Positions 19,158-23,921 of a stretch of 64,000 nucleotides of DNA are shown one piece after another. The DNA is from Octopus vulgaris (taxonomy: Eukaryota): the NCBI GenBank assembly GCA_951406725.2, contig OX597828.1:61318001-61382000 (forward strand), given 5' to 3'. The position numbers and the translations under genes are program-made. The notes beneath the pieces were generated by a model that saw only the letters and a program-made list of their open reading frames with translations, was not told the DNA's origin and ran no database searches. Every line of letters begins with the position of its first letter. The stretch's first letter is position 1.

Positions 19158-21580
19158 GTATAAGGGTGAAAAGGAACACACGAGTTGATATATATGAAAA
19201 AACAAGTCAAAATAGAAAATGCTAAAATAATTTTATAAAGAACATTTCAGTACCGGTTTCGGTCATTTTGAGACCTTTTCAACTGTAACGATTAAATAAT
19301 TAAATTTAGAAAAATTAAAAGAAAAGTTTTTTTAAAGGAATATTTGTATAGTGTTCAAATATAAGTGGCATTCTGCCTTTCTCTGTCTCCCTTGTTTGCA
19401 CTTGTGTGTTCGAGGTCGTTGTGAATTCTTGGTAGGGTAGAAGAAGAAGAAGGTTGATAGGAGAGGGGGTGGAAAAATTTGGGAGTGCCTTGATTGTCGT
19501 ATTTTGAATGGTCAGTGACGGCTAGCAGTTGCAGTTCAATTCAGGAGAATATTTCTATTGAAAGGTTTGTTTATGGAATTTGCGTAGGTGTTATACTAAA
19601 AAGCATTAGTGATAAAGTTAAGAGGTAGAAGGTGGAGCAGAAGAAGAAGAAGAAGAAGAAGAAGAAGAAGAAGAAGAAGAAGAAGAAGAAGAAGATGACG
19701 ATGTTGATGATGATGATAATGAAGAAGAAGAAGAAGGAGAAGGAGAAGAGGAAGATGATGATGATTGTGATGATGATGACGACGATGATGATGATAATGA
19801 TGATGAAGAAGAAGAAGAAAAAAGAGAAGGGAGAATATGAATGAGTGGAAGTAGTGAGGTGTTGTATGACTTGAAGTTGGCATGTTATGGATTATAGCTG
19901 TGATTGGGGTTGATTTGTAATGGATTCTTTGGAATTTAATATTTGCGTGTGTATTTCTGTTATTCTAAAGCTGAGGTGCATTAATCGTTTGTCGTAGACC
20001 CGTTAAGAAGTGGCCTGCATTTTGTAATAAAGAGAGTTTCTTTACTTATTCGTTGTCTCGGGGTTGTATCGTCCCTAAATTGGTAGAGGGGGAAAATCCT
20101 GAAGCCTGGTGTTTTGTTGTTGGCGCAAGTATCTATGTGTTGGCTGAAAGCTATTTTTCTGTTTTGGGGAATTTTTATCTGGGATCTGTGCAGGGCCATT
20201 CTTTTACGCAAACTATTTTTTGTTTGGCCTATATACTGCTCTTGACACCCAGAGCAGGTTAGTGTGTATATCAGGTTCTCCGAAGCACATGTGAAGTTGC
20301 TTTTCACTGTAAACCGTTGTCCCTGTTTGAAGGAGAACTCTGATCCCTCAATTAGATAATCGCATATCCCGCAATTGGGTCTTCCACATTTTTTTTACTG
20401 TCGGCTTCTGTGTTGAAGAGTGTATTCGGGCTTGTGTTAGGAGACTTTTCATAGATTTAGGCTGTCTCTTGCTTTTTATGATCGTGTGTGTTTGGAGGAT
20501 TGTGTTCATTCTGTGGTCTTTTTTTAGGAGGGGTACGTTGTGGAGTATGGTGCCGAAGGCTTCATTATTGAGAGTGTTGTGTGTGGAGATGTATGGTAAG
20601 GCTTTTGGTCGTAAGTTTTTCTTTGATTTGGGATGTCTCAGTTCCTTGATGTTAAGTTGAAGGGCACGTTGAATGCACATGTCAATAAGTGAAGGTGGGT
20701 AGTTCCTGGTGATAAGGGTATCTTTTAGTTCTTGTAGTCGTGTGTCTCTGGTGTTTGCATTAGAAACTATAGTGCATATCCTTTTTGCTAGATTGAAGGG
20801 GATATTCATCCTGGTGTGTCTGGGGTGGCATGAATTGAATGGAAGATATTGCTTAGAATCTGTAGGCTTATAATATATGTCTGTTTCTATTACATTATTA
20901 GCTTTCTTAATGAGGATATCGAGGAAGGGGAGTTGTTGCTGGCTATATTCAATCGTGAATTGGATGTTTACGTCCAGTCCGTTTAAAATTTCTTGGAATT
21001 CTTTGAGTTTCTCTATATTTTCATGCCTAAGAATGAAACAGTCATCTAGATATCTCTTCCAGTTGTTTTCTATGTAGATGGAGAAAGGGCTGCCATATCT
21101 TTCTAGAACCTTACGATACAGACTGATCTCTAGATATCCTATGACTAGGTTGACAAACGAGGGGGCCATTCGTGTACCCATCGCAGTCCCCGATTTTTGT
21201 CGGTAGAAGTTGTCTTTGAAGGCGAAGAAGTTATTTTCCAGGATGAATTTAACCCCTTCTATCACGAATTCTTTTTTGATGCGATGTGGGAGTTCGTTGG
21301 CGTGATTCTCTAGCCAGAATTGGATTGCCTCTAGTCCTAGGTTGTGGGGGATATTGGAGTAGTGGTTGACTACATCGAAGGATACCAGTATGGTGTTTTT
21401 GTTTATAGTATTCGGTAGGTGATTGAGCATATCCAAGTCGTTCCTTATATAGCTTTTGACATGTTTGAGGAGTGGTTTTAACAGGGTGTCTAAAAAGTTA
21501 CTGAGGCGGTGGGTTTCGCATGCGGGACCTGCTATTATGGGTCTCAATTTGAGGTCATTAGGATTAGGGACTTTAATTAT
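19158..21580 (-). mobile_element. Penelope-like retroelement, left arm (RT + GIY-YIG endonuclease + 3' tail)
   Basis: LRPIIAGP, LVSFDVV, GTAMGTRMAP, WKRYLDDCF, LPFLD (RT); LIYTLTCSGCQEQYIGQT..RMALH (GIY-YIG, 19981-20307); an A8 run frameshifts RT from EN. Confidence 0.93.
19243..19290 (-). ncRNA. Minimal hammerhead motif (U3:A8 variant) in PLE tail
   Basis: CGTTACAG-TTGAAAA-GGTC tcaaaat GACC-GAAA-CCGG-TA-CTGAAATG on the minus strand. Confidence 0.75.
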
Positions 21581-22075
21581 GTCAAAGAATATGATTATAT
21601 GACCAATTTCACAAGTAAAATCAGCCAATTCTACGGTATACCTAAGATACACAAAAGTGAGAAAATAAGTAACGCATGCAAGATAGATACAGACAAAATA
21701 ATTAAAGTCCCTAATCCTAATGATTAGCAAGAGACAGCCTAAATCTATGAAAAGTCTCCTAACACAAGCCCGAATACACTCTTCAACACAGAAGCCGACA
21801 GTAAAAAAATGTGGAAGACCCAATTGCAGGATATGCGATTATCTAATTGAGGGATCAGAGTTCTCCTTCAAACAGGGACAACGGTTTACAGTGAAAAGCA
21901 ACTTCACATGTGCTTCGGAGAACCTGATATACACACTAACCTGCTCTGGGTGTCAAGAGCAGTACATAGGCCAAACAAAAAATAGTTTGCGTAAAAGAAT
22001 GGCTCTGCACAGATCCCAGATAAAAATTCCCCAAAACAGAAAAATAGCTTTCAGCCAACAACAAAACACCAGGCT
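21581..22075 (+). mobile_element. Rearranged centre of the PLE palindrome: upstream RT piece (21581-21723) plus a third copy of the endonuclease region (21726-22075)
   Basis: QFYGIPKIHK..IIKVPNPND followed by KRQPKS..KKCGRPNCRICDYL..YIGQT. Confidence 0.85.
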
Positions 22076-23921
22076 TAGAGAAACTCAAAGAATTCCAAGA
22101 AATTTTAAACGGACTGGACGTAAACATCCAATTCACGATGGAATATAGCCAGCAACAACTCCCCTTCCTCGATATCCTCATTAAGAAAGCTAATAATGTA
22201 ATAGAAACAGACATATATTATAAGCCTACAGATTCTAAGCAATATCTTCCATTCAATTCATGCCACCCCAGACACACCAGGATGAATATCCCCTTCAATC
22301 TAGCAAAAAGGATATGCACTATAGTTTCTAATGCAAACACCAGAGACACACGACTACAAGAACTAAAAGATACCCTTATCACCAGGAACTACCCACCTTC
22401 ACTTATTGACATGTGCATTCAACGTGCCCTTCAACTTAACATCAAGGAACTGAGACATCCCAAATCAAAGAAAAACTTACGACCAAAAGCCTTACCATAC
22501 ATCTCCACACACAACACTCTCAATAATGAAGCCTTCGGCACCATACTCCACAACGTACCCCTCCTAAAAAAAGCCCACAGAATGAACACAATCCTCCAAA
22601 CACACACGATCATAAAAAGCAAGAGACAGCCTAAATCTATGAAAAGTCTCCTAACACAAGCCCGAATACACTCTTCAACACAGAAGTCGACAGTAAAAAA
22701 AATGTGGAAGACCCAATTGCGGGATATGCGATTATCTAATTGAGGGATCAGAGTTCTCCTTCAAACAGGGACAACGGTTTACAGTGAAAAGCAACTTCAC
22801 ATGTGCTTCGGAGAACCTGATATACACACTAACCTGCTCTGGGTGTCAAGAGCAGTATATAGGCCAAACAAAAAATAGTTTGCGTAAAAGAATGGCCCTG
22901 CACAGATCCCAGATAAAAATTCCCCAAAACAGAAAAATAGCTTTCAGCCAACACATAGATACTTGCGCCAACAACAAAACACCAGGCTTCAGGATTTTCC
23001 CCCTCTACCAATTTAGGGACGATACAACCCCGAGACAACGAATAAGTAAAGAAACTCTCTTTATTACAAAATGCAGGCCACTTCTTAACGGGTCTACGAC
23101 AAACGATTAATGCACCTCAGCTTTAGAATAACAGAAATACACACGCAAATATTAAATTCCAAAGAATCCATTACAAATCAACCCCAATCACAGCTATAAT
23201 CCATAACATGCCAACTTCAAGTCATACAACACCTCACTACTTCCACTCATTCATATTCTCCCTTCTCTTTTTCTTCTTCTTCTTCATCATCATTATCATC
23301 ATCATCGTCGTCATCATCATCACCATCATCATCATCTTCCTCTTCTCCTTCTCCTTCTTCCTCTTCTTCATTATCATCATCATCAACATCGTCATCTTCT
23401 TCTTCTTCTTCTTCTTCTTCTTCTTCTTCTTCTTCTTCTTCTTCTTCTTCTTCTTCTGCTCCACCTTCTACCTCTTAACTTTATCACTAATGCTTTTTAG
23501 TATAACACCTACGCAAATTCCATAAACAAACCTTTCAATAGAAATATTCTCCTGAATTGAACTGCAACCATTCAAAATACGACAATCAAGGCACTCCCAA
23601 ATTTTTCCACCCCCTCTCCTATCAACCTTCTTCTTCTTCTACCCTACCAAGAATTCACAACGACCTCGAACACACAAGTGCAAACAAGGGAGACAGAGAA
23701 AGGCAGAATGCCACTTATATTTGAACACTATACAAATATTCCTTTAAAAAAACTTTTCTTTTAATTTTTCTAAATTTAATTATTTAATCGTTACAATTGA
23801 AAAGGTCTCAAAATGACCGAAACCGGTACTGAAATGTTCTTTATAAAATTACTTTAGCATTTTCTATTTTGACTTGTTTTTTCATATATATCAACTCGTG
23901 TGTTCCTTTTCACCCTTATAC
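22076..23921 (+). mobile_element. Penelope-like retroelement, right arm (inverted copy of 19158-21015)
   Basis: ORF 22784-23110 is identical in protein to 19981-20307; ORF 22138-22743 nearly identical to the left arm; same A8 frameshift; ends in (TA)n. Confidence 0.93.
23789..23836 (+). ncRNA. Minimal hammerhead motif (U3:A8), right-arm copy with a stem I mismatch
   Basis: CGTTACAA-TTGAAAA-GGTC tcaaaat GACC-GAAA-CCGG-TA-CTGAAATG; CAA instead of CAG breaks the first stem I pair. Confidence 0.65.

What the first reader, a model, noticed from the sequence alone, without database searches (positions are those of the whole stretch)
19158..23921. 4.8 kb palindromic Penelope-like insertion inside the last Wnt intron
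Seen: 19158-21015 and 22076-23921 are near-identical inverted arms, 3' ends pointing outward into (TA)n. Each has RT C-terminus, GIY-YIG, a trinucleotide-rich tail and a hammerhead motif. Both share one A8 frameshift; they differ by scattered substitutions and a ~17 bp indel, arguing against an assembly duplication. Known: PLEs can form inverted structures. Inferred: one integration event primed at both ends of a break in (TA)n. The Wnt pre-mRNA would form a ~1.85 kb duplex under 400 nt from a splice donor, a strong potential ADAR or siRNA substrate.
Basis: partly seen in the sequence, partly recalled or inferred. Interest (0 to 1): 0.75.

Follow-up and report, generated by a model that had tools for sequence, protein, structure and literature searches.

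The report
Ordinary inverted Penelope insertion in Wnt
A jumping gene of the Penelope type sits as two back-to-back mirror copies in the last intron of an octopus Wnt gene; about three in ten of its close relatives examined in the same genome have this layout, so it is ordinary, and the predicted RNA hairpin has no tested effect on the gene.

Summary
The palindrome is real: 1.85-kb inverted arms (7 substitutions, one 17-bp deletion), 3' ends running into (TA)n, in the last intron of a WntA-clade gene, 386 nt from the donor. It is a 5'-truncated copy of a young, high-copy Neptune-type Penelope-like element. The 1.06-kb spacer is also element: the left copy runs on, then two rearranged pieces follow. 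The layout is the textbook one for this class and routine here: 26 of 84 close relatives are two-ended palindromes, 5 with arms as long. Of those 26, 25 carry the 30-nt 'tail' at one end only, which fits priming from both sides of a cut on one RNA. This copy has tails at both ends. The only other such copy also has mirrored flanks, and here the arms share changes that an inner third copy lacks, so later arm-to-arm copying is somewhat more likely than a second RNA template. One public run holds the inversion junction exactly. Editing, small RNA and splicing effects could not be tested. The scan noted the one-tail rule and arm homogenisation before on other DNA of this genome (e1-8669363, e1-8672319, e1-8666025).

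The parts
18978..19156 (.). (TA)n microsatellite, left target flank
19158..21580 (-). Piece A: 5'-truncated element copy, reference-unit positions 1958-4386 (RT, GIY-YIG, 3' non-coding end, tail); 19158-21015 is the left arm
   Evidence: reference unit = natural copy L044:2761-7146
19158..19187 (-). 30-nt tail at the left end
19248..19285 (-). Minimal type I hammerhead-like motif, U3-A8 core variant, stems I and II predicted; sense on the Wnt pre-mRNA strand
   Evidence: variant described in PMC4209133
19511..19527 (-). 17 bp present in the left arm (family state), deleted in the right arm at 23568/23569
19639..19806 (-). Trinucleotide-rich tract, left arm
20389..20396 (-). A8 run (frameshift between RT thumb and endonuclease linker), left arm
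21555..21580 (-). 26-bp overlap of pieces A and B, seen as a small inner inverted repeat with 21698-21723
21583..21723 (+). Piece B: unit 1843-1983, upstream RT segment, inverted relative to A (junction J1 at 21580-21583)
   Evidence: J1 held exactly by one contig of run X1
21726..22075 (+). Piece C: third partial copy, unit about 3065-3430, with A7 (21803-21809), two private substitutions and a 21-nt deletion between GCCAACA repeats
22076..23921 (+). Piece D, right arm: unit 2523-4386
22695..22702 (+). A8 run, right arm
22697..23110 (+). Endonuclease frame: CX4CX2C linker, GIY-YIG with two cysteines between the half-motifs and downstream histidines
23284..23457 (+). Trinucleotide-rich tract, right arm
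23794..23831 (+). Hammerhead-like motif, right arm, stem I weakened by a private change at 23796
23892..23921 (+). 30-nt tail at the right end
23928..24094 (.). (TA)n microsatellite, right target flank
15974..24307 (-). Last intron of the Wnt gene (GT...AG, 8334 bp; 3570 bp without the insertion)
24308..24576 (-). Penultimate coding exon of a WntA-clade gene
15512..15973 (-). Last coding exon of the Wnt gene

Best explanation
This is a dead, 5'-truncated, head-to-head insertion of a Neptune-type Penelope-like retrotransposon in a (TA)n run, likely made when both DNA ends of one cut primed reverse transcription, and likely a passenger in the Wnt intron. Shown: four element pieces (A inverted; B, C, D forward), both 3' ends in (TA)n, the same two-ended layout in 26 of 84 relatives, and a one-tail rule in 25 of those 26. 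Inferred: the endonuclease cuts (TA)n; the two 3' ends pair with two UA-rich patches 30 nt apart on the element RNA; one cDNA ran from unit 4386 to 1958 (A), the other made D, jumped to C and then B, and the two were joined with 1-3 nt of microhomology or filler. Inferred with less weight (about 0.5): the second tail and the changes shared only by the two arms came from later DNA-level copying of one arm onto the other, after which the arms drifted apart by about 0.4%. Predicted, untested: the unspliced Wnt RNA can form a 1.85-kb duplex and would be edited like other repeat-derived duplexes.
For: Piece map against a complete natural unit. RT and GIY-YIG domains; 24 residues between CxxC and the next Cys, like Neptune (25, 27) and unlike Nematis (7) in the two examples each seen in the supplement of PMC8557442. 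First-look candidates 1556-2645 and 40 of 40 scored hits at 97-100% in each search. 26 of 84 siblings two-ended, 25 tail/no-tail, 1 tail/tail, 0 no-tail/no-tail; chance of at least 24 of 25 independent events being mixed is 8e-7 at even odds. Both priming points sit at ATAT-like template sequence. 74 of 90 ends have at least 70% TA steps in the next 20 nt. At all 7 substitutions one allele is common in siblings (44-107 matches) and the other rare (0-3), and the 17-bp deletion is in 0 siblings. A 61-nt contig of run X1, depth 75, matches 21551-21611 across J1 exactly. For later arm copying: the only other two-tailed copy, L057, is also the only one of 27 (26 siblings and this one) with a mirrored non-simple flank, about 310 bp; piece C keeps the family state at unit 3304 and A7 where both arms share the derived state; single-copy pieces carry 9 rare changes in 1041 bp against 3 arm-specific in 2076 bp (Fisher p 0.004); one arm-shared two-change haplotype occurs only at this locus in the genome. 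Layout described in PMC8557442 and PMC3846280 (passages).
Against: The window's own flanks are not mirrored, so arm copying rests on two sites in piece C plus the double tail. One-tailed sibling palindromes also share rare alleles between arms (14 shared against 37 arm-specific); the window's ratio is 6:3 on the looser count (p 0.049) and 3:3 on the stricter one (p 0.35). The 9/1041 versus 3/2076 contrast is equally expected if the source RNA carried private alleles. In vitro, an anole Poseidon element starts reverse transcription at a site not homologous to the target, with no difference between strands (PMC11167929, parts 1-2 of 4), which differs from the pairing model inferred here. The J1 contig has 30 letters on one side, one short of the tool's bar for bridging, and X1 may be the assembly's own sample. 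The 84 siblings are the best hits of three searches, not a random draw.
Confidence: 0.85

Rival explanations
1. One insertion event as above, no later arm copying: both primers happened to start at the tail site, both arms came from one source RNA with private alleles, and piece C came from a second RNA by template jumping.
For: Shared rare alleles are expected from a private source, and occur in one-tailed siblings too. Piece C is bounded by jumps and carries a unique 21-nt slip. Flanks are not mirrored.
Against: No other copy in the assembly carries the arm haplotype tested or C's deletion, so both sources would have to be absent from it. 0 of the 25 sibling palindromes without mirrored flanks have two tails. 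No rare allele is shared by all three copies in the 335 bp where they overlap.
Confidence: 0.4
2. The duplex is functional: it is edited or diced and changes splicing or output of the Wnt gene.
For: The arm ends 386 nt from the donor; the insertion more than doubles the intron (3570 to 8334 bp); it is the longest and most nearly perfect inverted repeat found in window 15001-64000. Widespread editing of repeats in coleoids is reported (PMC9068888, abstract and passages).
Against: The insertion is young (pieces about 0.7-0.9% from family alleles) and one of many: 5 of 84 siblings have arms as long. Editing of an intronic repeat would be the default and not a sign of function. No RNA data bear on it.
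Confidence: 0.1
3. The palindrome, or the likeness of its arms, is an assembly artefact (fold-back read, or polishing that mixed the arms).
For: Junction J3 and the 21-nt deletion were not covered by any exact contig in 4 of 4 runs (contigs drop rare forms, and two runs were read only to 76-80%). Polishing could in principle carry A8 and a tail from one arm to the other.
Against: Arms carry private changes each; the spacer holds 565 bp of RT and an upstream piece found in neither arm; J1 stands in run X1; siblings follow a published one-tail pattern that an artefact would not produce.
Confidence: 0.07

Closest known systems
Endonuclease-positive Penelope-like elements of the Neptune group (PMC8557442: passages and supplement hits; PMC12602865: passages)
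   Same: [quoted passage not shown]
   Different: No RT tree with named references was built, so the clade call rests on motifs. In full-length siblings ORF1 overlaps ORF2 at TTTTTTA in the -1 frame; the killifish Neptune is described with two non-overlapping ORFs.
Canonical PLE insertion layout: inverted 5'-truncated copy at the 5' end, 30-40 bp tail often at one end only (PMC8557442 Fig. 2 legend; PMC3846280 passages)
   Same: Head-to-head inverted copies, 30-nt tail, microsatellite target with no readable target-site duplication.
   Different: This copy has the tail at both ends and two extra rearranged pieces at the centre. The papers say 'often' or 'optionally' one end; here the family gives 25 of 26.
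Anole Poseidon element PAc in vitro (PMC11167929, parts 1-2 of 4)
   Same: Both target strands are cut and extended; two start sites bound the tail; AT-rich targets.
   Different: PAc starts at RNA not homologous to the target and shows no strand difference; here both start points lie at ATAT-like sequence and the two ends nearly always differ.
LINE-1 twin priming (recalled; no paper read, one search gave only a listing)
   Same: Second target end primes on the element RNA; inversion junction with a short overlap or deletion.
   Different: In L1 the two cDNAs cover different parts of the RNA; here both begin at the 3' end and duplicate it.
Minimal hammerheads of metazoan PLEs, including the U3-A8 variant of Schistosoma Cercyon (PMC4209133, part 1 of 4)
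   Same: Type I motif with U3-A8, palindromic minimal helix III, pairs on opposite strands from truncated copies.
   Different: Helix II is 4 bp; activity untested; the right-arm copy has a stem I mismatch.

Membership tests
EN+ Penelope-like element | RT domain with C-terminal GIY-YIG endonuclease | tested here: met
   Pfam RVT_1 E 7e-08 and GIY-YIG E 1.2e-04 in window frames; both in one 784-aa ORF in sibling L044
EN+ Penelope-like element | Two cysteines between GIY and YIG plus downstream histidines (CCHH) | tested here: met
   Read from the translation LIYTLTCSGCQEQYIG...H...H against the definition in PMC8557442
EN+ Penelope-like element | Pseudo-LTR from partial tandems, inverted 5' copy, 30-40 bp tail | tested here: met
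   Tandem junctions in siblings such as L013, L020, L023, L044; inverted copies and tails
EN+ Penelope-like element | Hammerhead motif in the pseudo-LTR | tested here: inconclusive
   Motif conserved across copies and fits the U3-A8 minimal form by eye; no Rfam hit; fold z -0.79 and -0.04; cleavage not testable
Neptune group | CX2-5CxxC linker of full length upstream of GIY-YIG (reduced in Nematis, absent in Penelope/Poseidon, modified in Hydra) | tested here: met
   CGRPNCGIC then 24 residues to the next Cys against 25 and 27 in two Neptune and 7 in two Nematis rows
Neptune group | RT phylogeny with named Neptune elements | not tested
   No reference proteins were fetched
Naiad/Chlamys | N-terminal endonuclease | tested here: not met
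   GIY-YIG lies at residues 688-775 of 784, after RT
Functional intronic dsRNA element (ADAR or siRNA substrate) | Editing clusters or small RNAs over the arms, and an effect on the host transcript | not testable with these tools
   All runs listed as RNA or probable RNA are kept as contigs only; none was laid

The most novel reading that the evidence does not exclude
Penelope palindromes are made by twin priming on a single RNA: the two ends of a cut in (TA)n anneal to two UA patches 30 nt apart, which forces one tailed and one untailed end, and the rare two-tailed copies such as this one mark later gene conversion between the arms. That would explain the long-noted tail and inverted repeat of Penelope-like elements by one rule and give a built-in marker for arm-to-arm conversion.
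Probability: 0.4. Interest if true: 0.5.

Novelty: new member of a known kind. Interest (0 to 1): 0.22.

Why it matters
As a single locus it matters little: it is one of many such insertions, and its place in a Wnt intron has no shown consequence. The family-level count is the useful part. PMC8557442 (passage) names the formation of tandem/inverted structures as an open mechanistic question, and a 25-of-26 one-tail rule in a young family is a direct constraint on it that can be tested in vitro. This copy is an informative exception. If individuals differ for the insertion, it would also be a natural test of whether a 1.85-kb near-perfect intronic duplex alters splicing in an animal with heavy RNA editing.

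Tried and rejected
Rfam scan of the whole window: 0 hits at gathering score. Raw-read runs X21 and X23 laid 0 reads and X22 laid 11 on a high-copy repeat, so they are no test. Exact contigs across J3 and the 21-nt deletion were absent in X1, X2, X3 and X5 (depth in bin 22065-22084 equals only the family piece starting at 22076); X3 and X5 had no cover over the left side of J1, and X2 listed no J1 piece among the 8 shown. Contigs show presence, not absence, so this is at most a weak hint that the insertion varies between samples. Search for a source copy: the arm allele at unit 3304 occurs at 3 other places, but those three lack the 4 other arm-shared patterns tested; L024 shares A8 alone. Two different source RNAs for the two arms were considered and rejected: at each arm difference one allele is rare or absent in siblings. 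Retro-copied editing: rare changes in the coding part show no A>G excess on the sense strand (13.2 per 10,000 against T>C 19.8). A structure 3' of the TTTTTTA site was not predicted (MFE -0.2 kcal/mol over 86 nt). A fold-back of the left arm as origin of the whole right half was rejected because piece B extends 115 nt beyond the 5' end of A. Literature searches listed no paper on this octopus family or on a strict one-tail rule, but most subscription papers are not held, including the 2005-2006 Penelope reviews where tails were first described, and the supplement of PMC8557442 is cut in storage. A PDB look-up for the Wnt exon failed on a wrong frame and was not repeated.
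Full report
Observation. The inverted repeat is at the stated place. A global alignment of 19158-21015 with the reverse complement of 22076-23921 shows 7 substitutions, one 17-bp indel and two small indels (6 bp, 1 bp) in the trinucleotide tract. Both ends run into long (TA)n runs. Pfam finds reverse transcriptase and GIY-YIG domains. The host gene is a Wnt on the minus strand; its last exon is 99% identical to an Octopus bimaculoides protein auto-named Wnt-5b, but in a tree of 29 of the 120 listed hits that protein groups with an onychophoran WNTA (100/99 support) apart from the Wnt5- and Wnt4-named rows, so it is most likely WntA. 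The intron is 15974-24307 and the donor lies 386 nt from the right arm.

Anatomy. The window lies in a 2.8-Gb genome in which three searches with parts of the element gave 1556, 2645 and 2224 first-look candidates, with all 40 scored hits of each at 97-100% identity (these are not copy numbers). A complete 4386-bp unit between two tandem junctions in locus L044 served as ruler. On it the insertion reads: A, 19158-21580, minus strand, unit 1958-4386; B, 21583-21723, plus, unit 1843-1983; C, 21726-22075, plus, unit about 3065-3430 with a 21-nt deletion between two GCCAACA; D, 22076-23921, plus, unit 2523-4386. The 'spacer' is thus all element. A and B overlap by 26 bp, which makes the small inner inverted repeat. 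The junctions have 1-3 nt of microhomology or filler. No piece holds the 5' 1.8 kb of the unit, and both arms are frameshifted by A8, so the copy is dead.

Family identity. The endonuclease is C-terminal, has cysteines between the GIY and YIG half-motifs, and is preceded by a CX4CX2C linker with 24 residues to the next cysteine. In the supplement alignment of PMC8557442 two Neptune rows have 25 and 27 and two Nematis rows 7 (only these search hits were seen). I file it as Neptune-type by motif; no RT tree with references was made. The 3' end carries a conserved minimal hammerhead-like motif with the U3-A8 core described for Schistosoma elements in PMC4209133 (part 1 of 4 read). Rfam does not score it. 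The left copy folds with stems I and II; the right copy has a private mismatch in stem I. On the Wnt pre-mRNA strand the left motif is in sense, but it would be paired with its mirror copy.

How common is the layout? I fetched 84 sibling loci of 10 kb: the 39 other hits, 25 hits, and 20; they favour long, close copies. 26 of 84 are two-ended, outward-facing palindromes; one more (L033) was cut by the fetch edge and not counted; L064 and L065 look like one insertion duplicated with its surroundings. Five have arms of 1.8 kb or more (L034, L038, L042, L045, L073), and L038, L041, L045 and L066 also have extra pieces at the centre. In the first 64 siblings plus the window, 74 of 90 free 3' ends have at least 70% TA steps in the next 20 nt; of the other 16 most begin with a shorter TA run and two run into (CA)n. 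The layout is published: an inverted 5'-truncated copy at the 5' end and a 30-40 bp tail often at one end only (PMC8557442, passages; PMC3846280, passages).

Mechanism. Element ends stop at unit 4356 (no tail) or 4386 (tail), and both points sit at ATAT-like template sequence. Of the 26 palindromes, 25 have one of each, one has two tails and none has two untailed ends; single-ended copies are 42 untailed to 14 tailed. With one duplicate dropped, at least 24 of 25 mixed has probability 8e-7 at even odds and 1e-9 at the single-ended frequencies. Either arm, long or short, may be the tailed one. The simplest reading, inferred, is that both 3' ends of a cut in (TA)n pair with one RNA at the two patches and both are extended, the outer cDNA displacing the inner. 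Cutting and extension of both strands, and two start sites bounding the tail, were shown in vitro for an anole element, although there the start was not homologous to the target and did not differ between strands (PMC11167929, parts 1-2 of 4).

The exception. The window has tails at both ends. The only other such copy, L057, is also the only one of 27 whose two flanks mirror each other in non-simple sequence, for about 310 bp, so its second tail came with DNA-level copying. In the window the flanks are not mirrored, but the arms share derived states that piece C lacks (unit 3304 and A8). In the coding part the arms share 6 rare changes in 1038 bp and differ by 3, while the single-copy pieces have 9 in 1041 bp; a pattern holding two of the shared changes occurs only at this locus. 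A conversion tract ending inside the (TA)n would explain all this. Against it: one-tailed siblings also share rare alleles (14 shared, 37 arm-specific), the window's excess is borderline (p 0.049 or 0.35 by the count used), and a private source RNA plus a second RNA for C fits too. I put later copying at about 0.5, a second template at 0.4, polishing under 0.1.

Is it real DNA? At each of the 7 substitutions one allele is common in siblings and the other rare or absent; five derived changes and the 17-bp deletion are in the right arm, two in the left. One contig of run X1, 61 nt, depth 75, matches 21551-21611 exactly across the inversion junction, beside family contigs with depths in the hundreds to thousands. 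It is one letter short of the tool's bar for a bridge and X1 may be the assembly's own sample, but it argues against a fold-back artefact. Junction J3 was not seen in any of 4 runs, and three raw-read runs were no test.

Function. The arms would pair in the unspliced RNA, and this is the longest and most nearly perfect inverted repeat found in window 15001-64000. Coleoids edit repeats widely (PMC9068888, abstract and passages), so some editing is likely where the gene is expressed. That is the default fate of such a duplex, not a function. The insertion is young, the family has other palindromes as long, and no RNA evidence was obtainable. I give a real effect on Wnt output about 0.1.

Verdict. 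A new member of a known kind. The locus is ordinary; the family-level one-tail rule and this copy's departure from it are the only points of mechanistic interest. Earlier notes of this scan reported that rule and arm homogenisation on other DNA of this genome; I had counted the rule here before looking, and those notes are not independent support.

Noticed in passing
L044:2685-6313 (also L023, L034, L042, L046): Full-length siblings have ORF1 (about 440 aa stop to stop, no Pfam hit above cut-off) overlapping the 784-aa RT-EN ORF at TTTTTTA in the -1 frame; the T run is 6 long in 22 of 23 matches and the first Met of ORF2 lies after the GLKF motif. Likely programmed -1 frameshift; no stimulatory structure predicted. 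The Fig. 1 legend of PMC8557442 mentions frameshifted ORF1 in some PLE types. L030 reads through in frame.
   Followed up: partly
L057:1318-1952 and 4036-4677: Two-tailed palindrome whose mirror image extends about 310 bp into flanking DNA, including what looks like another interspersed repeat, and ends in the next TA run.
   Followed up: partly
L019:2732-2981: A further short 3'-end copy joins the main copy tail to tail across one shared TA run, both ends untailed.
   Followed up: no
L044:1-8041; L033:2852-10000: Tandem arrays of near-identical units (99-100%), cut by the fetch edge or ending inside a unit; likely recent source-type loci.
   Followed up: no
L062/L063 and L064/L065: Pairs of loci with the same insertion breakpoints and flanks, 336 kb and 58 kb apart on one contig: likely segmental duplications or assembly duplicates.
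   Followed up: no
window 21716-21727: Junction J2 reads as a 5-nt fold-back (CTAAT G ATTAG) at the end of piece B, a possible trace of self-priming before the jump.
   Followed up: no
family, unit 1300-3560: Rare changes on the sense strand show T>C 19.8 against A>G 13.2 per 10,000 (54 and 67 counts): a small strand bias, unexplained.
   Followed up: no
G000 contigs C23 and C15: Several Wnt-family exon hits cluster on C23 between 23.5 and 24.5 Mb, and another Wnt gene lies about 0.45 Mb from this one on C15.
   Followed up: no
window 1-983, 13210-13461, 35570-36148, 51817-52095, 58989-59408: Open frames that look by eye like fragments of other transposons (LINE 3' ends, mariner-like transposases); labels recalled, not searched (output partly cut).
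   Followed up: no
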